A stretch of 64,000 nt of DNA from Escherichia phage RB49: sequence record NC_005066.1, one strand, 5' to 3'. Positions within the stretch are counted from its first letter, which is position 1; the number at the start of each line of letters is the position of its first letter. Below, piece after piece: positions 1 through 8,734 of this stretch. The position numbers and the translations under genes were made by a program. Under the pieces are notes generated by a model. It worked only from the letters and a program-made list of their open reading frames with translations. It made no database searches and had not been told where the DNA came from.

Positions 1-76
1 CATCATACCATTTAAAAAATTGGTTTGCATCTTTTACATCTTTCCACGCATAGGTCTTACCAGCTTCCAATTTCAT
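1..76 (-). CDS. hypothetical protein, 5' portion only (runs off window start)
   Basis: ATG (rc) at 74-76; N-terminus MKLEAGKTYAWKDV resembles MEWEVGKTYKIECE of the adjacent 81..617 ORF. Confidence 0.3.
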   Translation of the reverse strand, partial: MKLEAGKTYAWKDVKDANQFFKWYD

Positions 77-80
77 AATA

Positions 81-617
81 TCATCTCTCATTTTTGATAC
101 GTGATTCTAATTGGATCATACGGTCTCGCGTTTGTTTGTATTCTCGGATAGCACCGATCCGGCTAGGCATACCATCCAGTACGCTCTTAATACCTTCTAG
201 GGTAGTAATTTTGGCAATGCTATTATGCAACCCCATCTTATCGATCAACTGAATGTCGTAGGCTTCCATAAGCAGACCCAGGCGTTCTAAAGTTAGGTCT
301 TCTTCTTTTTCTTCTGAATCTGGAATCTTAGGTTCAATAGTAACTTCGGTAAAGAAACGACGCTCACCCGACCAAAACCACACACCGGAACAGCCAATAG
401 GGGATTCTTTTAACGTCATAGAGTCGAAATTACTACCAATAATAGTAATTTCTCTAACATCACCATCATCGTCAAGGTCTTCTACCCTAAACGGGCGACC
501 AGCCAACAAGTCAACAATACATCTGTTAATAGACGACGAAAATTTAGTCAGTTCGGCTTTCGACGCTTCGCATTCAATCTTGTAAGTTTTACCAACTTCC
601 CATTCCATAATAATCAC
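81..617 (-). CDS. hypothetical protein (178 aa)
   Basis: Track ORF, co-oriented with and abutting nrdG; no recognised motif. Confidence 0.55.
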   Translation of the reverse strand: MIIMEWEVGKTYKIECEASKAELTKFSSSINRCIVDLLAGRPFRVEDLDDDGDVREITIIGSNFDSMTLKESPIGCSGVWFWSGERRFFTEVTIEPKIPDSEEKEEDLTLERLGLLMEAYDIQLIDKMGLHNSIAKITTLEGIKSVLDGMPSRIGAIREYKQTRDRMIQLESRIKNER

Positions 618-618
618 C

Positions 619-1128
619 TCAAATAATTTTCACTGGAATACTATTAACAATCTTGTATTGTACTTGATTGTCAGACCCCCGCCACGGCTTCTTCGTTGGC
701 ATATCTTTAATATAACGCCCATCGATGAACATGTCAACTGATTCTACAATTTTTCTTTGCTCATCATTCAATTGGTCAAGGGTATAACCGGACCATAGCC
801 AAATATCTTTATTTGGCATCCATGATTTTACTTCATCGATGATCCGCTGTACACCCTTTAAATTGCGTTTATACAGTGGATCGCCACCTAAGAATGTTAG
901 CCCCTGAATAAAATCAGGTCTAAGCAGATCCAGAATCAATCCCATTGTATCATCGGTGAATGGTTCCCCGTTCTTAGGATTGAGTAGACTGGAATTAAAG
1001 CAACCATCACATGCGTGTGAACATCCGGTAACGTAAAGGGAGACTCTCACTCCCTCACCGTTAACCATATCACAATCTTTAATATCGGCATAGCGTAGTT
1101 TGCCGTATGTATCAGAACTCATATTCAA
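619..1128 (-). CDS. nrdG: anaerobic ribonucleotide reductase activating protein (radical SAM)
   Basis: 169 aa; Cys-rich radical-SAM-like N-terminus (CSHACDGC); adjacent to nrdD as in T4. Confidence 0.88.
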   Translation of the reverse strand: MNMSSDTYGKLRYADIKDCDMVNGEGVRVSLYVTGCSHACDGCFNSSLLNPKNGEPFTDDTMGLILDLLRPDFIQGLTFLGGDPLYKRNLKGVQRIIDEVKSWMPNKDIWLWSGYTLDQLNDEQRKIVESVDMFIDGRYIKDMPTKKPWRGSDNQVQYKIVNSIPVKII

Positions 1129-1264
1129 TTACCCCGAACTCGTTTACAATCTGCGCTTTATAGTAACCACCGCGAGATGCTAATATATAAGCTGGGCTTA
1201 GGTATTCGTATTCACGGATTTCTACTTGTGCGTTTTCAGTTTCCCAAATCAGTAAAGTCCACAT
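1112..1264 (-). CDS. small hypothetical protein (50 aa)
   Basis: Internal ATG of track ORF 1112..1339, chosen because the promoter cassette at 1265-1337 and an AGGAG RBS lie immediately upstream. Confidence 0.4.
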   Translation of the reverse strand: MWTLLIWETENAQVEIREYEYLSPAYILASRGGYYKAQIVNEFGVIEYEF

Positions 1265-1337
1265 ATTTGATTCTCCTGTAAAGTTGTATCTCGTCTTGAT
1301 GAATATAGTATAGGGGATCTCGCGATCCCCGTCAAGC
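1265..1337 (-). promoter_or_regulatory. early promoter cassette (sigma70-like -35 TTGACG / -10 TATACT, palindromic spacer, conserved leader + RBS)
   Basis: rc reads TTGACG-17-TATACT; palindrome GGGGATC..GATCCCC in spacer; GGAGAATCAAA before ATG. Confidence 0.5.
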
Positions 1338-1339
1338 AT

Positions 1340-1888
1340 TTATTTTAAATTTTTTCGAATGTATTCAGACCATTCCTTCCCTGTCAGTTCGGTCCCATTC
1401 TGGAAACTGAAATATTCATACGGCATCGAGTCAAGATAAAACAGGATCATACATCGCGCCATATAATACCAATCACGATTAAAGTAAACTACGTTATCGC
1501 CAGTACCATCAGCACCTTTATCATAACCATCGCGGGTACGGGCGACCCATTGAATGGTATCATTTTTCTCACGGATAGTAACAGGTTCCCAATATCCAGC
1601 ACATCCAGCATGACCACACGAACAAGTAAGGAAATATTGACCTTTTGCTTTGTTGTCATCCCATTCACGATGAATTGGTTTGATTTCGTGAAACAGTGCC
1701 AAACAATCATGATTATGCAACACTGGCTTACCATCAATCAATGCATGGAATGTATACAAACGACCCGTAGACAAATAGTTATCTTCTCGCTCTACAAGTT
1801 CAATAGCAATCTTTTTAGCTCGTTCTTTGTGTCGTTGTGCTTTACGCTTACGGTTTAATGATTTCATATTCACCTCACACATTATCAA
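1340..1888 (-). CDS. hypothetical protein, Cys/His-rich (182 aa)
   Basis: Track ORF; CxC...C..C..H cluster (TCSCGHAGCAGYW) suggests metal binding. Confidence 0.5.
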   Translation of the reverse strand: MIMCEVNMKSLNRKRKAQRHKERAKKIAIELVEREDNYLSTGRLYTFHALIDGKPVLHNHDCLALFHEIKPIHREWDDNKAKGQYFLTCSCGHAGCAGYWEPVTIREKNDTIQWVARTRDGYDKGADGTGDNVVYFNRDWYYMARCMILFYLDSMPYEYFSFQNGTELTGKEWSEYIRKNLK

Positions 1889-2424
1889 AGGTCGCGATAT
1901 AGTACATTATGAAAATGAGAACTTGCATTACCAATATTGTAGATAATAAATTCTTCATCCGGCGCTTGCGCTACAAATTGAGTATGAGCAACCGCCACAA
2001 CCTTAAAAATACGATCCGTGATCTTGTGTTTAATTTCTGCCCCTACTTCCATAGGAACATATTCATGTGTTTCTGTTTCAGTCGCAAAACAGCCATCTTC
2101 TTCATAAGCACGAACAAATCGATCGCAATCAGTACGCTTAACAAATTCAAGAGTATACAATTCTCGTGAATTGTCGGTATAAACCAACACAGAATTATTA
2201 TGATAGCGAATCACATACAGGTTATTATCATCGTCAATTACGCAAAAGCTACGGATTCCTTCGCCTTTACTCCAGCAGATATTAACCACCGTTCCTCTAA
2301 TAAAAAAACTTTCCTTTAAATTAAAACTAGTCAATGTGCTAGCGTGCATTTTAACAACAACACCATCGCCAATTTCCAGTTTACGAAGTTTAACTTCTTT
2401 GCTCAGTACACAAAACATCATCAT
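1885..2424 (-). CDS. hypothetical protein (179 aa)
   Basis: Track ORF; ATG rc at 2422-2424 preceded by GAGG RBS and promoter cassette. Confidence 0.55.
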   Translation of the reverse strand: MMMFCVLSKEVKLRKLEIGDGVVVKMHASTLTSFNLKESFFIRGTVVNICWSKGEGIRSFCVIDDDNNLYVIRYHNNSVLVYTDNSRELYTLEFVKRTDCDRFVRAYEEDGCFATETETHEYVPMEVGAEIKHKITDRIFKVVAVAHTQFVAQAPDEEFIIYNIGNASSHFHNVLYRDL

Positions 2425-2524: not shown

Positions 2525-4387
2525 TTACATGTGCTTAACGCGGTTTACCATCTCGGAGTGTTTCCCGTGGTTGAATGGACGCAGATCAACAGATCCAAGA
2601 TATCCACTAACGCGACGGATAACATTCATCTTTTCCAGATTGTCATTGCCGCAATCAGGACAAACAAAACCAGACTCGGTCGCTCTCATTTCCTTAGTAG
2701 ATCCGCATACATGACATACATCAGAAGGAGTATTAACACCGAAGTAGTGCAATTTATCCATTGCATAGTCTACTACAGTTTCAAGACCTTTCAGGTTGTT
2801 TTTCATGTCTGGGAACTCAACATAAGAGATCATGCCACCGGACGCCAGCCAGTGATAATCTTTCTCAAAGTCGATTTTCTCAAATGGAGTGACTTTCCGG
2901 TCTACGTCAAGGTGGAATGAGTTGGTGTACCAGTCTTTATCGGTAGCACCCTTAACAATACCAAATTGCTCTCGGTCCAGTCGATTAAATCGATAGCAAA
3001 GGCTCTCGGCTGGCGTACCGTAAAGACTAAACCCAAGTCCGGTTTCATCCTTCCATTTTTCAGTATAATGACGCAAGATCTTAAGAATATGTTTACCGTA
3101 TCGCTGCGCATCTTCCGAATCAAACGGATGAACACCAAACAGGACGCTCAATACCTCATGTAAACCAATATATCCAAGAGAGATACTAGCGCGACCATCT
3201 TTCAGAACTTCCAAAATTTCATCGTTTTGATGAATACGGAAAAATGCACCTTCTGTATACAGTACAGGAGCAACATTGGCTTTAGCCCCTTTTAAAGCGT
3301 CTACGCGACTCATGAGCGCATCAAAGCAAATAGGCATACGATTAGCTAGCTCTTGTTCGAATAGCTCAATTCTGCGCATTACAGACGCTTTACCAGCACG
3401 ACGCGCGGCAATAAGGGCAATACGCGGAAGATTTAGAGTCACAACACCTAAGTTATTACGTCCGTCTAATACTTCTTCGCCTTTCTCATTATGCCACACA
3501 CCCAGGAAGCTACGACAACCCATCGGGCTAACCGGAACACTAGATCCGGTGATACTACGGTTATTCTTCGCAGAGATATAATCAGGGTAAAGACGCTTAC
3601 TAGAACATTCCAATGCAAGTTGCTTAATGTCGTAGTTCGGATCTTCTGGTTTAAGGTTTAATCCTTCTTCTAAGAACATCACCAGCTTAGGAAACACCGG
3701 AGTTATACCATCTTTACCTAAACCTTTAGTTCGAACTTTCAGGATCGCTTTCTGAATCAGTTTTTCTTCCCAGCTAGTACCCATACCAAAGGTTAAAGTC
3801 ACAAAAGGCGTTTGACCGTTGGTGGAGAACAAAGTGTTGATCTCATATTCCAACGCCTGATATCCGTCTAACGTTTCTTTTTCTGTCTTCTCTTGTGCAT
3901 AGAGAGTATCAGCTTTGATTCCGTAGGTTTCGGCATCAGCAAGGTGTTTATGATATGTTTTCTTAACATACGGTGCTAACACCTGATCGATGTTTGCAAT
4001 TGTGGTCCCGCCATATTGATGACTTGCCACCTGTGCGATAATTTGAGCGGTTACAGCACATGCAACACCGATCGATTTAGGACTTTCGATTTGTGCGCTA
4101 CCCAATTTAAAACCATTCTCTAACATGTCTTTGAGATTAACAAGACAGCAGTTAGTAAACGGCATAGCGGGTGCATAATCCATATCATGATAATGAATAT
4201 CACCATCTACATGCGCTTTATAGATGTGCTCAGGTAACACGGTTTTAGCAATCTGTTTAGACACAGCGCCAGCAATCAGATCTCGACGTGTCGGGAATGT
4301 TCGCGCGTCTTTGTTCGCGTTCTCTTTACTTACTTCGTTTTCTTTACCCGTTGCGATCTCTGTAATGTCTTTGATTAGTTTTTCCAT
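2525..4387 (-). CDS. nrdD: anaerobic ribonucleoside-triphosphate reductase (glycyl radical enzyme)
   Basis: 620 aa; C-terminal Cys cluster CHVCGS..CPDCG and glycyl-radical motif RVSGYLG; continuous ORF, no intron. Confidence 0.95.
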   Translation of the reverse strand: MEKLIKDITEIATGKENEVSKENANKDARTFPTRRDLIAGAVSKQIAKTVLPEHIYKAHVDGDIHYHDMDYAPAMPFTNCCLVNLKDMLENGFKLGSAQIESPKSIGVACAVTAQIIAQVASHQYGGTTIANIDQVLAPYVKKTYHKHLADAETYGIKADTLYAQEKTEKETLDGYQALEYEINTLFSTNGQTPFVTLTFGMGTSWEEKLIQKAILKVRTKGLGKDGITPVFPKLVMFLEEGLNLKPEDPNYDIKQLALECSSKRLYPDYISAKNNRSITGSSVPVSPMGCRSFLGVWHNEKGEEVLDGRNNLGVVTLNLPRIALIAARRAGKASVMRRIELFEQELANRMPICFDALMSRVDALKGAKANVAPVLYTEGAFFRIHQNDEILEVLKDGRASISLGYIGLHEVLSVLFGVHPFDSEDAQRYGKHILKILRHYTEKWKDETGLGFSLYGTPAESLCYRFNRLDREQFGIVKGATDKDWYTNSFHLDVDRKVTPFEKIDFEKDYHWLASGGMISYVEFPDMKNNLKGLETVVDYAMDKLHYFGVNTPSDVCHVCGSTKEMRATESGFVCPDCGNDNLEKMNVIRRVSGYLGSVDLRPFNHGKHSEMVNRVKHM

Positions 4388-4432
4388 TGTATCACCTATG
4401 AAAAAGCGGGATTTTCTCCCGCTCGTTGATAG

Positions 4433-4927
4433 TTATTTTACCAGTTCTGCTAATTCTTTTTCTTTAGCTTCTAGTTCAGCTTTAAGCTGTTTAATCTCTT
4501 GTCGCTTCTTATTAGCGGCTTCTTGCTTACTATTTCGGATAACCTGATCTAGATACAACTCCCAATCCTGAATATTTTTGATAATGTAACCGTCAACATT
4601 AATTGGTCGGAGATTCAGTACAGCTTCCAGTTTAGTTGCAAAAACTTTAATTGCTGGGGTGAAGTATTCATATTCGTTATCTTCAAACCAATAACCTAGA
4701 CTTGCATTATCAATACGAAGACGAAGTTCAAGATCAAGGTCTTTATCTTCGGTGTATAGGTCTTTTACACACCCCATAGAATTAACAACAACTTTAAAAC
4801 GAATTTTATCTACACCACCAAACACATCAGTAAGGATACCAGCAATTGAGCTATTAGCGCAAGATTGGTCGCTGAATGCGTCAAGGTTTTCTTTAGTTAC
4901 AGTATACCAAACATCTTGTACCCACAT
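4433..4927 (-). CDS. hypothetical protein with C-terminal coiled coil (164 aa)
   Basis: Track ORF; GAGGATTATATT-ATG start context; K/E-rich heptad-like C-terminus. Confidence 0.55.
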   Translation of the reverse strand: MWVQDVWYTVTKENLDAFSDQSCANSSIAGILTDVFGGVDKIRFKVVVNSMGCVKDLYTEDKDLDLELRLRIDNASLGYWFEDNEYEYFTPAIKVFATKLEAVLNLRPINVDGYIIKNIQDWELYLDQVIRNSKQEAANKKRQEIKQLKAELEAKEKELAELVK

Positions 4928-4985
4928 AATATAATCCTCTCGTTGTTAAGTGGGAGTATTATAGCATACTCCCTTTGCATGTCAA
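4928..4985 (-). promoter_or_regulatory. early promoter cassette with stem-loop over the -10
   Basis: rc: TTGACA-16-TATAAT; palindrome GGGAGTAT..ATACTCCC spans the -10. Confidence 0.55.
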
Positions 4986-6160
4986 GCACTAACTTTTTTC
5001 TTTACTGCTTTCACCTTCTGGCGAATTGCTCGAATCTCTTCGATCTCTTTTTCAGTCTCTTTAACAATTTCTTTGCGATTCTGAATATCTGTATCGAGAT
5101 TATCATCAAGTTTAGGCAGCATGTCAATCAAGAACTTTTTAAAGTCTTTCAGGTTTCGGATAACAGCACCTTCACCCATTACCGCCACACCAACACCATC
5201 CGGCAGATCACCAAACAGTTTAACCAGTTCAGACAGATGATCATGGTCTTCTAATGCTTCCTCCGGTTCAGATGGCAGTTCAACAAAGTTATAACGTTCA
5301 TCATTGCTGATCAAGTGATACCAGCAAAGCCCGAAAGATTTCGGTGTATATTCTACACCATCAATTTCAACCGCGTCAACACTTCCATAATCATCTACTT
5401 TAGTTACCTTAAATCCTTGTCCCAGCTTTTGAACAATTTCAACAACATGACTTGATACAGTTTCAGCGGTAAACCAATATGGCAAATTATGCTGATTTGG
5501 CTTGTAGCGTTCACCTACTTTAAATCTCTGACCATCCGCTTGCATAGCATGAAATTGTTGTTTCGTGATTTCCGCGAAGTATTCAAATTCGCCACCATCA
5601 AACACACAAGCCCATTGATCACAAAAACGATCTGCCTTAACAGTTTCACCTTTCGCGGTGATCATGGTAGCCGATCCGTGCAATTCTTCTTCAACCAAAA
5701 AGCCATATTCGACAAAATCAACAAGTTTCATGGCTTCTTTGTGCTCTGGGTCATGCTCTCCCCAGAATCGCTTAAATTCTTGCAAACCTTCTGGTGTAAA
5801 CGAATAACATTTACCTTTTTCAAAGTAAGTCGGCATTACATCCTCTTTCTTGTTCATCGCTTCGTATGCCTCTTTTGAGATGCGTTTAAAGTATTTACGC
5901 TCATCGTGCATAATCATAGTAGCCCAATAATAAACGATATCCTCAGCGGAATAAACTACATCTCCAGCTTCAATAGTAATAACATGACCGTGGTCATCTT
6001 TTTCTAATACTTTAAAGCCCTTTTCGACGATTTCAGCAACCCGAATATGACCACGGCGCGAAGCATCGGTCAGAATAATTGAATAGCGAGAAAAGTCTAG
6101 AAACTCATCTTTACCACCTTCACGGAATGCATAGTAATGACCTTCAAAGAATTTAGCCAT
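4982..6160 (-). CDS. hypothetical protein, two-module member of tandem paralog family A (392 aa)
   Basis: Contains GFKVL...ERKYFKRI motif twice; same motif in the next two ORFs. Confidence 0.6.
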   Translation of the reverse strand: MAKFFEGHYYAFREGGKDEFLDFSRYSIILTDASRRGHIRVAEIVEKGFKVLEKDDHGHVITIEAGDVVYSAEDIVYYWATMIMHDERKYFKRISKEAYEAMNKKEDVMPTYFEKGKCYSFTPEGLQEFKRFWGEHDPEHKEAMKLVDFVEYGFLVEEELHGSATMITAKGETVKADRFCDQWACVFDGGEFEYFAEITKQQFHAMQADGQRFKVGERYKPNQHNLPYWFTAETVSSHVVEIVQKLGQGFKVTKVDDYGSVDAVEIDGVEYTPKSFGLCWYHLISNDERYNFVELPSEPEEALEDHDHLSELVKLFGDLPDGVGVAVMGEGAVIRNLKDFKKFLIDMLPKLDDNLDTDIQNRKEIVKETEKEIEEIRAIRQKVKAVKKKVSA

Positions 6161-6220
6161 AATATAATCCTCTCGTTGTTTAAATGGGAGTATCTTACTA
6201 CTCCCGTTTCATCATGTCAA
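6161..6220 (-). promoter_or_regulatory. early promoter cassette with stem-loop
   Basis: rc: TTGACA-17-TAAGAT; palindrome GGGAGTA..TACTCCC. Confidence 0.5.
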
Positions 6221-6783
6221 GCGTTAAATGACTTTTGGATCTCTTTCAGTTCAGCTACTTTATCGGCGCTGAATTTAGCGTAGGTATCATGTCGAATAAT
6301 TTCACTTTCAAGAAAGGTTTCCAGCCGAGATCTATTTTCAATAAGGAACTCTTTCAGGTCTTCCGCGTTCTTGATAAAGATTTTATTGTCAGTAATGTCA
6401 TCTTCAATCGCAAAGGAGATAGAGCGAACTTTACCAAACAAGTTAATCAGATCTTCCAGAGATTCTTCTTTCTTAACTGGTTTCATTTCTTCAAACTGCT
6501 TTTTAGTGATGCGTTTAAAGTATTTGCGCTCGCTTACATCAATCATGATTGACGCACCCTCATAATCATGAGTTTCGACCAAATACACTTTACCCATAAC
6601 ATTAACAGTTAGAACTTTAAAGCCCTTGTGAAGCACACCATACAGGAACTTGTTATGTTGTGGATAGCGTTTAACAAATTCCTCTGCGGACTCAGCATTA
6701 CGGAAAGTGTAATAACGACCTCGTTCAAAAACAGCATCAGTTGAAGACTTAGCCGGATACAATTTATACGTTTTCTGTACCAT
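6217..6783 (-). CDS. hypothetical protein, paralog family A (about 188 aa)
   Basis: GFKVL...ERKYFKRITKKQFEEM motif; start moved to ATG at 6781-6783 with GAGGATTATATT RBS context. Confidence 0.55.
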   Translation of the reverse strand: MVQKTYKLYPAKSSTDAVFERGRYYTFRNAESAEEFVKRYPQHNKFLYGVLHKGFKVLTVNVMGKVYLVETHDYEGASIMIDVSERKYFKRITKKQFEEMKPVKKEESLEDLINLFGKVRSISFAIEDDITDNKIFIKNAEDLKEFLIENRSRLETFLESEIIRHDTYAKFSADKVAELKEIQKSFNA

Positions 6784-6797
6784 AATATAATCCTCTA

Positions 6798-7070
6798 TCA
6801 TTTCACTAATTGAACAGCACGAAACAGAATGCGGTCACACGGAAGAAGCATAAATTCCCAACGCGGATCAAAGTCTTTAGCGGTATATGTTTTCCCATCA
6901 ACCGAGATTTCACTTACATAACCAATAGGTGACAATTTAAGAACAGTAAACCCATTCTTGATGACTTCGTAGGTATCTTTCAAACCTTCGTAGTCATCCT
7001 CTAAGAAGTCTTTACGTGCTTGCTCAGATTTAAAAACATAGGCCACACCGGATTTAAACATCTTACGCAT
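6798..7070 (-). CDS. hypothetical protein, short paralog family A member (90 aa)
   Basis: N-terminal module (YxF...GFTVL) shared with 4982..6160 and 6217..6783. Confidence 0.5.
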   Translation of the reverse strand: MRKMFKSGVAYVFKSEQARKDFLEDDYEGLKDTYEVIKNGFTVLKLSPIGYVSEISVDGKTYTAKDFDPRWEFMLLPCDRILFRAVQLVK

Positions 7071-7130
7071 TGTTGATTCTCCTTCTTGATTAGATGGGAG
7101 TATTTTACTACTCCCATTTCATGCTGTCAA
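7071..7130 (-). promoter_or_regulatory. early promoter cassette with stem-loop
   Basis: rc: TTGACA-17-TAAAAT; palindrome GGGAGTA..TACTCCC. Confidence 0.5.
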
Positions 7131-7133
7131 CTA

Positions 7134-7622
7134 CTATCTTAATCTTTGTATAAATTGTTTCTTATACTTCTTCGTGATCTCTTCTCTTGTATCCGCGTCA
7201 CAATAATCGAAACCTTCTGCGTCCATAATAGCAACCATCTCCGCGCGTGTCAAGCGTGAAAATCGTTTTACTTTATCAACAGCATATTGAGGATGTAAAT
7301 GATTGTTGGTGTAGTCTCCTTTGATGTAATTAACATAGTTTGTAGCCCAAACAACGAAATCAGCACCTAAAGCACCAACACCAAACCGTTTAAAGTCTCC
7401 GGTCAACGATCCTTCTAGGCGGTTGCAACACGAATGAAGCAATCCCCTTACACGGCCTTGCCCTTTCCCATCTAGATCGTGGTCGTGGTCAAGATGGTTT
7501 TTGCTCATATCCTCAAAAAGTGGCAATTGACAAAGGGGGCAAATGCCCCCCTGTTTTTCGAATAGTTCTTGTTTGTACTCTTTAGCACTCTTAGCAGTCA
7601 GTAACATAAATTCACCCTCCAA
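7134..7622 (-). CDS. 49: recombination endonuclease VII (Holliday junction resolvase)
   Basis: 162 aa; CPLCQ..HLDHDHDL..GRVRGLL..CN motif pattern of T4 gp49. Confidence 0.9.
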   Translation of the reverse strand: MEGEFMLLTAKSAKEYKQELFEKQGGICPLCQLPLFEDMSKNHLDHDHDLDGKGQGRVRGLLHSCCNRLEGSLTGDFKRFGVGALGADFVVWATNYVNYIKGDYTNNHLHPQYAVDKVKRFSRLTRAEMVAIMDAEGFDYCDADTREEITKKYKKQFIQRLR

Positions 7623-7631
7623 AGAAGGTAT

Positions 7632-7925
7632 TTAACCATTAATCTTGTTTTTGACTACAAAGGATCGGAACTCATCAAAACCACCGATATAATCACCATC
7701 ATAGAAAATCTGCGGCATGGTGGCAATAACTTCTACCCCTGCGCGATCCTGAATATCGGCAATGATAGAATCAATCTTTACCGGACGACCGTTTTCGTCC
7801 ACACCATCATTAACCGGAATGTAGATGTAAGGGATCTTACGCGCTTCACAAAGGCGCTTTGCATTCTGGCAATACTTACAGTTGTAACCTTCAAAACCAA
7901 AAATTTCTACCATGTTATACCTCAA
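7632..7925 (-). CDS. nrdC: glutaredoxin/thioredoxin (NrdC-like)
   Basis: 97 aa; CKYC redox motif; TMPQIFYDGDYIGGFDE glutaredoxin C-terminal signature. Confidence 0.85.
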   Translation of the reverse strand: MRYNMVEIFGFEGYNCKYCQNAKRLCEARKIPYIYIPVNDGVDENGRPVKIDSIIADIQDRAGVEVIATMPQIFYDGDYIGGFDEFRSFVVKNKING

Positions 7926-8734
7926 TCTACGTTAGTTACATAAACTTCTTGCGTATCAGAAGACTTACCACCTGAACGATCTAGGCAATAGGTCTTATTC
8001 AACAGGACGCAGTTTAAATCATTCCGCTTGATAAAGTCAAGAAGATGATCATTTACCTTTCCCTTATGATGCGTGACATTACTGATACCAAACTGAAAAC
8101 CACGCGCCATAATAGATTCTACCCACTGATAGAATTTAATCTCTTCCTCGTCACTCCAGAACTTATTATATTCCGCAGAAGTGACAAGGTACGGCGGGTC
8201 CAAATAAACGAAATCACCTGGCAAGATCTCGATCTCGTCATAACGACCAGACGTAAAACTGATTCGACCGTCTTTGTTTTCTTCCTTAAAATTCAGGACA
8301 CGCTCTACCGCGTTTTCGTTAAAAGTCCGGCGACCAAAATTAGCATTAAATTCGCCCTTCCTGTTATGGCGGTTAATGTTGCTAAAACTGTGCTGAATCA
8401 GAACAAACAGAGATAGCGGATCTGGATTCTCATTATACTTCTTACGGAATGCCATGTAAGCATCTTTATCATCACGAGACAAACCATTTTCGGTAATAAT
8501 ACGCTTGATCGTAGAAACCGGATCAGGACACTCGTCAATCGCTTTGTACGCGTCAATTAAGCGGTGATCATAGTCATTAGCCAGCACATCCCCTTCGACG
8601 TACAGAGACACGCTCAAGCCGCCACAGAAGGCATCAACAAAGCGGTTATAGTGCTTAGGGAAATACTTACTAACACCTGGCAATAACTTTTCCTTATTGC
8701 CAGTATAGGGAATTAAACCTAATGCTTTCTTCAT
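7922..8734 (-). CDS. dam: DNA adenine methyltransferase (Dam)
   Basis: 270 aa; motif I FCGGLSV and motif IV DPPY; recognisably similar to T4 Dam along its length. Confidence 0.9.
   Translation of the reverse strand: MKKALGLIPYTGNKEKLLPGVSKYFPKHYNRFVDAFCGGLSVSLYVEGDVLANDYDHRLIDAYKAIDECPDPVSTIKRIITENGLSRDDKDAYMAFRKKYNENPDPLSLFVLIQHSFSNINRHNRKGEFNANFGRRTFNENAVERVLNFKEENKDGRISFTSGRYDEIEILPGDFVYLDPPYLVTSAEYNKFWSDEEEIKFYQWVESIMARGFQFGISNVTHHKGKVNDHLLDFIKRNDLNCVLLNKTYCLDRSGGKSSDTQEVYVTNVD

What the first reader, a model, noticed from the sequence alone, without database searches (positions are those of the whole stretch)
4982..7070. Tandem paralog family A between gene 49 and nrdD
Three consecutive genes (392, about 188 and 90 aa) share a module (Y-x-F-R...GFKVL...G-x-V...ERKYFKRI(S/T)K...EEM). 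The largest contains the module twice. Each gene has its own promoter cassette (4928, 6161, 7071). This is a locally amplified, diversifying gene family at the position where T4 has pin and the 49.x ORFs. Such amplification is typical of host-interaction or counter-defence loci.
Basis: seen in the sequence. Interest (0 to 1): 0.45.

Follow-up and report, generated by a model that had tools for sequence, protein, structure and literature searches.

The report
Tandem GoF-family early genes in RB49-like phage
The three neighbouring genes are real, old paralogues of the T4 GoF/Frd.2 family of small beta-barrel early proteins, whose function is still unknown. This RB49-like coliphage carries many more copies than T4, and they are gained and lost by recombination between repeated promoter/stem-loop cassettes.

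Summary
The window is a Krischvirus (RB49/JSE-like T4-type coliphage). On the minus strand between gene 49 and nrdD lie A90 (6798-7070), A194 (true start 6783, 188 aa) and A392 (4982-6160). All three carry an ~85-100 aa module. A392 carries it three times, not twice, and shares a C-terminal domain with A194. The next gene (4433-4927, 164 aa) is a probable divergent member. Another member lies after nrdG (81-608). In the 98%-identical RB49 genome I count 9 genes and 12 modules.

The module is homologous to the N-terminal domain of T4 GoF, and more weakly to Frd.2. This family was published in 2025 as "LSm-like fold" early proteins of unknown function. AlphaFold gives a confident five-stranded small barrel, and its best solved neighbour is FeoA (SH3-like).

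The "promoter cassettes" are the published PeSL elements. They precede A90, A392 and the 164-aa gene; A194 has none. Phage KFS-EC lacks A90+A194 and has a chimeric PeSL at the junction.

The T4 synteny claim is wrong: pin and 49.x lie upstream of gene 49. The duplications are old (15-47% identity) and pooled dN/dS is below 1. Nothing here tests the counter-defence idea. Verdict: new members of a known family, modest interest.

The parts
7071..7133 (-). PeSL cassette (promoter-early stem-loop) between gene 49 and A90. It has a -35 TTGACA at 7130-7125, a hairpin GGGAGTA/TACTCCC spanning the -10 TAAAAT, then AAGGAG and the ATG. It drives A90 and A194.
   Evidence: Sequence; promoter scan 11 of 12; pattern match at 7096-7130; hairpin -13.8 kcal/mol, z = -3.5. 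The element type is described in PMC2839356.
6798..7070 (-). A90: a 90-aa protein made of one module only, with no C-terminal domain.
   Evidence: ORF. Module HMM. SW z = 10.6 against A392 repeat 3, 9.6 against repeat 1 and 8.6 against A194. Hits phrog_16115, and also phrog_622 and phrog_5347, which all three genes share.
6217..6783 (-). A194 (188 aa from the ATG at 6783). It has a short leader, one basic module (pI 9.5), a linker, and a C-terminal domain ending in a long helix. It has no cassette of its own and starts 14 nt after the A90 stop.
   Evidence: Other Krischvirus records annotate the 567-nt version. BLASTP to T4 GoF E = 5e-6, SW z = 10.6. AF2 model with module pLDDT 84-95. Charge. 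Hits phrog_8944 'goF mRNA metabolism modulator'.
6161..6216 (-). PeSL cassette upstream of A392. The -35 TTGACA at 6220-6215 overlaps the TGA stop codon of A194. The hairpin spans the -10 TAAGAT. The ribosome-binding site and start read ACGAGAGGATTATATTATG.
   Evidence: repeat families D1, D3; -11.9 kcal/mol, z = -3.7.
4982..6160 (-). A392: three tandem modules followed by a C-terminal domain homologous to that of A194. Repeat 1 is at 5843-6160, repeat 2 at 5537-5842, repeat 3 at about 5261-5536, and the C-terminal domain at 4985-5260.
   Evidence: BLASTP between segments. Three HMM domains. SW z = 13.9 (r1-r2) and 13.7 (r1-r3); C-terminal domains z = 8.3. The AF2 model shows the same secondary-structure unit three times. 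Annotated 'frd.2' or 'goF' in JSE, phi1 and ECD7 records.
4928..4981 (-). PeSL cassette upstream of B164. It has a perfect TTGACA-16-TATAAT promoter with TG; the -35 overlaps the TGA stop of A392. It has the same hairpin and the same ribosome-binding-site and start stretch as the A392 cassette.
   Evidence: 12 of 12; D3, 23 of 23 identical; -15.2 kcal/mol, z = -3.8.
4433..4927 (-). B164: a 164-aa protein and probable divergent family member, with one module and a C-terminal helical domain. It lies immediately upstream of nrdD.
   Evidence: No significant pairwise similarity (z at most 2.4). A profile recruits it over the whole module: HMM iteration 2, E = 5.8e-4 in 2719 ORFs. hhalign of profiles built without it gives E = 3.1e-4, probability 39%, 76 columns in register. 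phrog_3710 hits both B164 and A392.
81..608 (-). W175: a further family member (module, acidic linker, C-terminal domain) directly after nrdG (619-1128).
   Evidence: Module HMM E = 1.9e-7. ORF. SW z = 6.0 against T4 GoF and 5.5 against A392 repeat 3.
1..91 (-). The first ~30 codons of another family member (the 159-aa gene of RB49), cut off by the left edge of the window.
   Evidence: RB49 locus L007 10833-11312. The window maps onto RB49. The gene is recruited by the module HMM at E = 2.3e-4.

Best explanation
The locus is part of a tandem array of early accessory genes of the T4 GoF/Frd.2 family in a Krischvirus (RB49-like) phage.

Anatomy. Each protein has one to three copies of an ~85-100 aa small beta-barrel with SH3/LSm-like topology: strand 1, a helical hairpin, strands 2-4, a short helix, strand 5. 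In most members a linker and a helical C-terminal domain follow, which probably mediates self-association.

Expression. The genes are transcribed immediately after infection from strong sigma-70 PeSL cassettes. Each cassette carries a hairpin that also attenuates read-through.

Evolution. The array arose by old gene duplications and by internal domain triplication in A392. It is remodelled by homologous recombination between PeSLs, and probably between paralogues.

Mechanism (inferred, not shown). The barrels are ligand-binding scaffolds whose surfaces have diverged; module pI ranges from 4.3 to 9.5, and only core residues are conserved. By analogy with T4 GoF(D25Y) or (G84R), which stabilises gene-41 mRNA post-transcriptionally, at least the basic, consensus-type modules (A194, A392 repeat 1) most likely bind RNA or a host RNA-metabolism protein. 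They would thereby protect or tune early and middle phage transcripts. Multi-barrel proteins and the C-terminal self-association domain would give multivalency.

How firm each step is. Family membership, fold, architecture, cassettes and the recombination-driven gain or loss are shown. Early timing is inferred from promoter type. The RNA-related activity is an extrapolation from a mutant T4 protein.
For: Identity of the phage: 98.7% to JSE and 98.0% to RB49.

Paralogy.

Homology to T4 GoF:
- BLASTP of A194 gives E = 5e-6.
- hhalign of a window-only profile gives probability 86.8%, E = 4.2e-6, over 84 columns.
- An HMM built only from the 12 RB49 modules ranks GoF first in the T4 ORFeome (E = 1.6e-11) and Frd.2 second (1.2e-3).
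- phrog_8944 'goF' hits A392 and A194.

Fold:
- The AF2 module has pLDDT 84-95 with five strands, and the unit repeats three times in A392.
- BFVD gives 51 matches at E <= 1e-3, nearly all from T4-like phages, one of them named GoF.

PeSL cassettes; PMC2839356.

Recombination: KFS-EC lacks A90+A194, and its 49/A392 junction is a chimera of the two flanking cassettes.

Expansion: 9 genes and 12 modules in RB49, against 2 detectable in T4 (3 with MotB.1).

Functional lead: GoF(D25Y) stabilises mRNA (PMC12152347). The column of the GoF G84R suppressor holds K or R in A392 repeat 1, A194, both D274 modules and W175.
Against: - Wild-type GoF and MotB.1 had little or no effect in the published reporter assay, and the wild-type function is unknown.
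- Most modules here are acidic (pI 4.3-6.0), which argues against general RNA binding.
- No surface residue is conserved across paralogues, so a single common ligand is unlikely.
- My fold searches returned SH3-like, KOW and FeoA proteins but no Hfq or LSm protein.
- The C-terminal-domain model is of low confidence (pLDDT 50-79). C-terminal-domain homology is shown only between A392 and A194.
- Membership of B164 rests on profile evidence only.
Confidence: 0.6

Rival explanations
1. Host-takeover or counter-defence binders. The barrels act as SH3-like protein-protein adaptors. Each paralogue would neutralise or redirect a different host protein, for example a defence effector, a protease or an RNase. 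Copy number and alleles would vary with the hosts the phage meets.
For: - The fold class is SH3-like, and such folds are typical protein-binding modules.
- Most modules are acidic, and their surfaces have diverged strongly.
- The genes are non-essential accessories in a hyperplastic region. KFS-EC shows presence/absence variation.
- Alleles are mosaic between strains: the B164 module falls to 56% identity beside a C-terminal domain that stays at least 91% identical, and the A194 C-terminal domain falls to 61%.
- dN/dS is higher than in the flanking genes (0.11-0.40 against 0.03-0.12).
Against: - No similarity to any known anti-defence or defence protein.
- Pooled dN/dS is below 1 everywhere.
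- The gene set is almost fixed in the genus (55 of 57 records).
- The paralogues are old.
- No host partner is known.
Confidence: 0.25
2. Accessory factors of the anaerobic ribonucleotide reductase. The array flanks nrdD and nrdG on both sides and the barrel resembles FeoA, so the proteins might help iron or Fe-S supply, or regulate NrdD/NrdG.
For: - Eight of the nine RB49 family genes sit inside the nrdC-49-nrdD-nrdG-nrdH block.
Against: [quoted passage not shown]
- The ninth RB49 member lies between genes 41 and 61.
- The published comparison noted that GoF lacks the histidines that the metal-binding relatives use.
- T4 fills the same slots with unrelated ORFs (pin, 49.x, mobC, 55.8), so these are simply hyperplastic slots. 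PMC2839356 names nrdD as a PeSL-associated plastic locus.
Confidence: 0.05
3. The similarity is chance or low-complexity, and there is no real gene family.
For: Some pairs show no pairwise signal on their own: r2-r3, and B164 against every other module.
Against: - The linking pairs have z = 8.6-14.6, and 0 of 500 shuffles reached the observed score.
- The similarity is in register over the whole module.
- Independent PHROG profiles hit all three genes.
- AF2 predicts the same fold for every copy.
- Orthologues are conserved under purifying selection.
Confidence: 0.01

Closest known systems
T4 GoF (comC-alpha), founding member of the GoF/Frd.2/MotB.1 'LSm-like fold' family (Kim et al. 2025, PMC12152347)
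   Same: - The N-terminal ~90-aa barrel is homologous in sequence.
- The predicted fold and the nearest solved neighbour, FeoA, are the same.
- The layout is the same: barrel, acidic linker, C-terminal domain.
- It is an early, accessory gene of a T4-type phage.
   Different: - T4 GoF is a single-barrel gene next to gene 39 and cef.
- Here eight of nine genes cluster around nrdD/nrdG, one protein has three barrels and another in RB49 has two.
- The C-terminal domain of A392 and A194 ends in a long helix that GoF lacks.
- GoF has A-G where most copies here have R-(K/R) in the E-R-(K/R)-x-F motif.
- The paper does not mention RB49-like phages, arrays or multi-barrel proteins.
T4 Frd.2 (Pfam PF03197 FRD2)
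   Same: - It is recruited by the module profile: E = 1.2e-4 at iteration 2, and E = 1.2e-3 with the RB49-only model.
- phi1, JSE and ECD7 annotators already called the 392-aa gene 'frd.2'.
   Different: - The window proteins do not reach PF03197 even at E <= 1.
- hhalign probability is only 29%.
- The genomic position differs: T4 frd.2 lies between frd and gene 32.
PeSL, promoter-early stem-loop cassettes of RB49 and phi1 (Arbiol et al. 2010, PMC2839356; Comeau et al. 2014, PMC4122927)
   Same: - A sigma-70 consensus promoter, with a stable hairpin overlapping the -10 (one of the described subclasses).
- The stop codon of the upstream gene lies at the 5' end, and the Shine-Dalgarno sequence and start codon at the 3' end.
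- A chimeric cassette marks a deletion or insertion between related phages.
   Different: Nothing essential. These three share one hairpin sequence (GGGAGTA/TACTCCC) that occurs nowhere else in the 64-kb window. They therefore form a locus-specific subfamily that was co-duplicated or homogenised with the genes.
FeoA and other SH3-like small beta-barrels (KOW, Tudor, Sm/Hfq)
   Different: - No sequence similarity.
- A helical hairpin replaces the RT-loop.
- No Sm motifs were seen, and there is no evidence of ring oligomers.
- Neither search returned an Hfq or LSm structure.
Two-barrel goF-annotated proteins next to cef in Enterobacter phages CC31 and PG7 (Karamvirus)
   Same: They are multi-module GoF-family proteins. 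The two-module representative P0063 matches them at 32-34% identity.
   Different: They sit at the T4-like goF position, have two barrels rather than three, and are not part of a tandem array as far as I examined.

Membership tests
GoF/Frd.2/MotB.1 phage 'LSm-like fold' family (PMC12152347) | N-terminal domain homologous to the GoF, Frd.2 or MotB.1 N-terminal domain | tested here: met
   - GoF: BLASTP E = 5e-6; hhalign 86.8%, E = 4.2e-6; RB49-only HMM E = 1.6e-11, the top hit among 1795 T4 ORFs.
- Frd.2: weak but second-ranked.
- MotB.1: not significant (E = 0.019-0.2).
GoF/Frd.2/MotB.1 phage 'LSm-like fold' family (PMC12152347) | Bent five-stranded antiparallel beta-sheet domain | tested here: met
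   The AF2 model of A194 has strands at 24-27, 55-60, 66-70, 77-81 and 89-92, with pLDDT 84-95. A392 shows the same unit three times at pLDDT 60-86. These are predictions, not solved structures.
GoF/Frd.2/MotB.1 phage 'LSm-like fold' family (PMC12152347) | Flexible linker followed by a variable C-terminal domain | tested here: met
   Met for A194, A392, B164 and W175. A90 is the exception, being a barrel only.
GoF/Frd.2/MotB.1 phage 'LSm-like fold' family (PMC12152347) | Nearest solved structures are FeoA-type SH3-like barrels and Hfq | tested here: inconclusive
GoF/Frd.2/MotB.1 phage 'LSm-like fold' family (PMC12152347) | Early gene of a T4-type phage | tested here: inconclusive
   The phage is a Straboviridae Krischvirus. 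The genes follow strong sigma-70 consensus PeSL promoters. The timing itself was not measured.
GoF/Frd.2/MotB.1 phage 'LSm-like fold' family (PMC12152347) | Effect on mRNA level or stability (shown only for the GoF D25Y mutant) | not testable with these tools
   This needs reporter or RNA-decay assays. Wild-type GoF and MotB.1 showed little effect in the paper.
Pfam FRD2 (PF03197) | Score at or above the gathering threshold (29 bits) | tested here: not met
   None of the window proteins matches at E <= 1. T4 Frd.2 scores 133 bits and P0063 scores 28 bits.
Sm/LSm/Hfq proteins proper | Detectable sequence or structure match to Sm/LSm/Hfq proteins | tested here: not met
   No LSM or Hfq Pfam hit. 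No Hfq or LSm structure appears in either fold search.
Sm/LSm/Hfq proteins proper | Sm1/Sm2 sequence motifs | not tested
   I did not search for the motifs explicitly. The columns invariant across copies are core residues Y, F, V, G and F.
Sm/LSm/Hfq proteins proper | N-terminal helix followed by the barrel | tested here: not met
   The models start with strand 1, and the helices form a hairpin between strands 1 and 2. This rests on predicted structures.
Sm/LSm/Hfq proteins proper | Ring oligomers (hexamers or heptamers) | not tested
   Oligomer state was not examined here. The published AF3 multimer models of GoF and MotB.1 were not confident.
PeSL regulatory cassettes (PMC2839356) | Sigma-70 consensus -35 and -10 elements | tested here: met
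   Promoter matches are 10-12 of 12.
PeSL regulatory cassettes (PMC2839356) | Stable stem-loop | tested here: met
   Hairpins are -12 to -15 kcal/mol, z about -3.5 to -3.8.
PeSL regulatory cassettes (PMC2839356) | Intergenic position between the upstream stop codon and the downstream Shine-Dalgarno sequence and start codon | tested here: met
PeSL regulatory cassettes (PMC2839356) | Mediates insertion or deletion of the flanked genes, leaving a chimeric cassette | tested here: met
   The KFS-EC junction matches the window's A90 cassette in its 5' half and the A392 cassette in its 3' half, and A90+A194 are absent.
   In T4, pin and 49.x lie between nrdC and 49, and gene 49 overlaps nrdD.
   The module HMM does not hit pin or 49.x in T4.

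The most novel reading that the evidence does not exclude
Most Krischvirus barrels keep a basic R-(K/R) pair in the conserved E-R-(K/R)-x-F motif, where T4 GoF has A-G. The classical T4 suppressor G84R restores a basic residue at exactly that column. The consensus-type modules (A194, A392 repeat 1, W175, and the two-barrel RB49 protein) could therefore be naturally 'active' versions of what GoF only becomes by mutation. On this reading the array would be a multivalent RNA-protecting or RNase/Rho-antagonising system. The triple-barrel A392 would then be the best available handle on the wild-type function of the GoF family, which has been open since the 1970s.
Probability: 0.12. Interest if true: 0.6.

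Novelty: new member of a known kind. Interest (0 to 1): 0.3.

Why it matters
The GoF/Frd.2 family is one of the many sets of T4 early genes without a known wild-type function. This locus shows that RB49-like phages invest far more in it: 9 genes and 12 barrels, against 2-3 single-barrel genes in T4. It also shows that the barrel can be concatenated up to three times in one protein. The paralogue surfaces have diverged from strongly acidic to basic.

This gives a natural series of variants for experiments on what the barrel binds. The locus also adds a clean new example of the published PeSL shuffling mechanism, with a chimeric cassette at the KFS-EC deletion junction. It does not reveal a new kind of system.

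Tried and rejected
1. Pfam, NCBIfam, PADLOC, PDB-sequence and Rfam searches of the genes or locus gave nothing significant. The best Pfam hit, RecT at E = 0.0014, is below threshold and I treat it as chance.
2. The word-indexed homologue searches returned only Krischvirus orthologues (8 and 49 hits), so they did not help with distant relatives.
3. The full HMMER scan of 1.84 billion representatives found only 33 clusters at E <= 1e-3. Three of them are long repetitive proteins (P0060, P0064, P0068) with partial matches, which I regard as spurious and did not follow.
4. A C-terminal-domain HMM seeded on A392 and A194 recruited no other paralogue and nothing in T4. The idea of one common C-terminal domain for the whole family is therefore not supported by sequence.
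5. tblastn with the three-barrel metagenomic protein P0076 found no phage record.
6. The afdb50 fold library was unavailable.
7. Foldseek against the PDB gave no match at E <= 1e-3.
8. I tried to confirm B164 through a BFVD hit from ECD7 (163 aa). The lengths do not match the annotated 164-aa gene, so this could not be settled.
9. Positive selection: pooled Nei-Gojobori dN/dS is below 1 in every segment. I did not run site models.
10. Equivalence of GoF D25 is alignment-dependent for A392 repeat 1, which gives R in hhalign and A in the HMM alignment. I therefore claim it only for A194.
Full report
**What is there.** The window is a Krischvirus, an RB49/JSE-like T4-type coliphage. Positions 4400-7700 are 98.7% identical to JSE and 98.0% to RB49, and 57 phage records match, all of this genus. 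All genes in this part lie on the minus strand. In transcription order they are:
- dam (7922-8734)
- nrdC (7632-7925)
- gene 49, endonuclease VII (7134-7622; Pfam hits)
- A90 (6798-7070)
- A194 (6217-6801 as listed)
- A392 (4982-6160)
- a 164-aa gene, B164 (4433-4927)
- nrdD (2525-4387)

The real start of A194 is almost certainly the ATG at 6783, which gives 188 aa. That ATG is preceded by AGAGGATTATATT, the same ribosome-binding stretch as in A392 and B164. Other Krischvirus records annotate the 567-nt version.

**Is the similarity real?** Yes.
- BLASTP between segments links A392(1-110) to A194 (E = 1e-10), to A392(105-215) (2e-9), to A392(205-300) (1e-9) and to A90 (1e-6). It also links A392(205-300) to A90 (2e-6).
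- Smith-Waterman scores against 500 shuffles give z = 13.9 (r1-r2), 13.7 (r1-r3), 14.6 (r1-A194), 10.6 (r3-A90) and 8.6 (A194-A90). No shuffle reached the observed score.
- The 392-aa protein therefore carries the module three times, not twice.
- The C-terminal ~90 residues of A392 and A194 are also homologous (BLASTP 1.6e-7, z = 8.3).
- In the alignment of seven window copies only Y10, F49, V51, G58 and F91 (A392 numbering) are invariant. That pair is 38% identical, with a 50-nt stretch that is 78% identical at DNA level.

**The family is larger than the finding.**
- A module HMM finds a further member at 81-608, directly after nrdG (E = 1.9e-7).
- I fetched the whole RB49 genome and searched its ORFs iteratively. 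It contains 9 genes with 12 modules.
  - A90, A194, A392 (three modules) and B164 lie upstream of nrdD.
  - Four genes lie between nrdG and an nrdH-like glutaredoxin. They are 175-178, 159, 274 (two modules) and 166 aa. The second is cut by the left edge of the window.
  - One 211-aa gene lies between the gene 41 helicase and the gene 61 primase.
- B164 has no significant pairwise similarity to any copy. A profile recruits it over the full module at E = 5.8e-4. An independent profile-profile comparison gives E = 3.1e-4, probability 39%, with 76 columns in register. I call it a probable member.
- The modules are 15-47% identical to one another, so the duplications are old.

**What the family is.**
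- PHROGs assign A392 and A194 to phrog_8944, 'goF mRNA metabolism modulator'. All three genes also hit phrog_622 and phrog_5347.
- I tested the link to T4 directly.
  - T4 GoF aligns to A194 with E = 5e-6.
  - A profile made only from window copies matches GoF residues 1-90 with probability 86.8% and E = 4.2e-6.
  - An HMM made only from the 12 RB49 modules ranks GoF first (E = 1.6e-11) and Frd.2 second (1.2e-3) among 1795 T4 ORFs. MotB.1 is not significant.
- This is the family described by Kim et al. 2025 (PMC12152347). According to that paper:
  - Its nearest structures are FeoA-type SH3-like domains and Hfq.
  - The genes are early and non-essential.
  - The wild-type function is unknown.
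  - Only the suppressor mutant GoF(D25Y) was shown to stabilise gene-41 mRNA post-transcriptionally.
- The paper does not mention RB49-like phages, arrays or multi-barrel proteins.
- The phi1, JSE and ECD7 records already label the 392-aa gene 'frd.2' or 'goF'.

**Structure.**
- AlphaFold2 on A194, with a 17-sequence alignment of paralogues, gives a confident module (pLDDT 84-95). The order of elements is: strand 24-27, helices 30-39 and 41-51, strands 55-60, 66-70 and 77-81, a short helix, strand 89-92, then a helix.
- The C-terminal domain is less certain: helix, two strands, helix, then a long helix at 151-187, with pLDDT 50-79.
- A392 shows the same unit three times, followed by a long terminal helix at 337-391 (mean pLDDT 67).
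- Foldseek against the PDB has nothing at E <= 1e-3. Its weak list is made of SH3-like barrels: Spt5 KOW, ribosomal L14e/L21e/L24, IdeR and Tudor.
- Against predicted viral structures there are 51 matches at E <= 1e-3. Nearly all come from T4-like phages of Aeromonas, Acinetobacter, Serratia, Citrobacter, Pectobacterium, Edwardsiella and Proteus, often several per phage. One is named GoF.
- In 1.84 billion representative proteins the window profile finds only 33 clusters at E <= 1e-3. These include other two- and three-module proteins. One of them resembles the goF-annotated gene next to cef in Enterobacter phages CC31 and PG7.

**The 'promoter cassettes'.**
- The three intergenic stretches (7071-7133, 6161-6216, 4928-4981) share TTGACA, a GGGAGTA/TACTCCC hairpin that encloses the -10 hexamer, and a Shine-Dalgarno sequence plus ATG.
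- This exact pattern occurs three times in the window and nowhere else; none is expected by chance.
- The hairpins are stable (-12 to -15 kcal/mol, z about -3.5 to -3.8).
- The TGA stop codons of A194 and A392 lie inside the -35 hexamer of the next cassette.
- These are the PeSL elements of RB49 and phi1. They are strong early promoters combined with terminator-like hairpins, and they were proposed to shuffle the genes they flank (PMC2839356).
- They precede A90, A392 and B164. A194 has none, so A90 and A194 form one unit.
- Phage KFS-EC lacks exactly this unit: its order is 49 - A392 - B164 - nrdD. Its 49/A392 junction equals the window's A90 cassette on the 5' side and the A392 cassette on the 3' side, with the switch inside the shared hairpin. 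This is the signature of PeSL-PeSL recombination.
- A metagenomic protein, P0056, joins the N-terminal part of the 81-608 gene to the C-terminal part of the two-module RB49 paralogue. This suggests that recombination also occurs between paralogues.

**Comparison with T4, and variation.**
- In T4 the order is nrdC-49.3-49.2-49.1-pin-49, and gene 49 overlaps nrdD.
- T4 has two detectable single-module genes, three with MotB.1, and they are scattered.
- Among nine Krischvirus genomes, pooled dN/dS values are as follows:
  - flanking genes: 0.03 (gene 49), 0.08 (nrdC), 0.12 (dam)
  - A90: 0.11
  - A194: 0.18 (module) and 0.29 (C-terminal domain)
  - A392: 0.26-0.30 (barrels) and 0.09 (C-terminal domain)
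  - B164: 0.40 (module) and 0.15 (C-terminal domain)
- The most variable segments are the B164 module (down to 56% identity) and the A194 C-terminal domain (down to 61%). They also have raised dS.
- Constraint is therefore relaxed and alleles are mosaic, but positive selection is not shown.

**Mechanism.** The following are shown:
- the paralogy
- membership of the GoF/Frd.2 family
- the predicted fold and the domain architecture
- the PeSL cassettes
- recombination-driven gain or loss of A90+A194

Early expression is inferred from promoter type. The activity is an extrapolation.
- Only core residues are conserved, and module charge ranges from pI 4.3 to 9.5. I therefore read the barrels as binding scaffolds with diverged specificities.
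- The basic, consensus-type ones (A194, A392 repeat 1) are the best candidates for the RNA-related activity known from mutant GoF.
- The column of the GoF suppressor G84R holds K or R in A392 repeat 1, A194, W175 and both modules of the 274-aa RB49 protein. The suppressor thus moves GoF towards the family consensus E-R-(K/R)-x-F.
- Against a general RNA role: most modules are acidic, wild-type GoF is nearly inactive in the reporter assay, and my fold searches returned no Hfq or LSm protein.
- The main rival is protein-binding host-takeover or counter-defence adaptors. The evidence does not exclude it, and it has no direct support.
- A role tied to NrdD/NrdG is unlikely, because family members in T4 and one in RB49 lie elsewhere.

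**Verdict.** It is wrong on T4 synteny and on cassette assignment, and it is unsupported on recent amplification and counter-defence. Both the protein family and the cassettes are already published. What is new is descriptive:
- the size of the expansion in Krischvirus
- the triple-barrel protein
- the probable membership of A90, B164 and the genes after nrdG
- a new chimeric-PeSL deletion junction

Noticed in passing
window 2525-4387 (nrdD), compared with L001 366-2988 (JSE): nrdD is one intact 620-aa gene in the window. In JSE it is split into two CDSs by an inserted homing-endonuclease gene, and in T4 it carries the I-TevII intron. The window is therefore not JSE itself, despite 98.7% identity.
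   Followed up: no
window 6215-6220 and 4980-4985: The TGA stop codons of A194 and A392 (both genes end ...GCT TGA) lie inside the TTGACA -35 hexamer of the next PeSL cassette. The 3' end of each gene and the following promoter therefore form one conserved junction.
   Followed up: partly
protein P0056 (metagenome), related to window 81-608 and RB49 L007 9996-10820: This 154-aa protein has the N-terminal 48 residues of the 81-608 gene and the C-terminal part of the two-module 274-aa RB49 paralogue. It looks like a deletion by recombination between neighbouring paralogues.
   Followed up: no
RB49 L006 40773-41408 (outside the window): A ninth family member (211 aa, phrog_16187) lies directly downstream of the gene 41 helicase, between genes 41 and 61. 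T4 GoF mutants act on gene-41 mRNA. This may be coincidence.
   Followed up: partly
window 1112-2424: Three ORFs of unknown function (75, 182 and 179 aa) lie between nrdD and nrdG, where T4 has the homing-endonuclease gene mobC. The module HMM does not hit them.
   Followed up: no
L013 1314-2069 (Shigella phage Sf20): Sf20 has an HNH homing-endonuclease gene inserted between dam and nrdC. The window and the other Krischvirus loci I examined lack it.
   Followed up: no
proteins P0060, P0064, P0068: Three very long proteins (1079-4074 aa) match part of the module profile 5-11 times each, at E = 1e-5 to 3e-11. They are probably unrelated repeat proteins. I did not inspect them.
   Followed up: no
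window 7134-7622: The listed gene 49 ORF starts at a TTG (162 aa). The ATG at 7607 gives 157 aa, the same length as T4 gp49 and as the gene 49 annotation in the other Krischvirus records.
   Followed up: partly
window 4388-4432, and L011 5562-5577 (G5211): The G5211 record annotates a predicted terminator hairpin in the short spacer between B164 and nrdD. nrdD may therefore be partly insulated from the PeSL-driven transcript.
   Followed up: no
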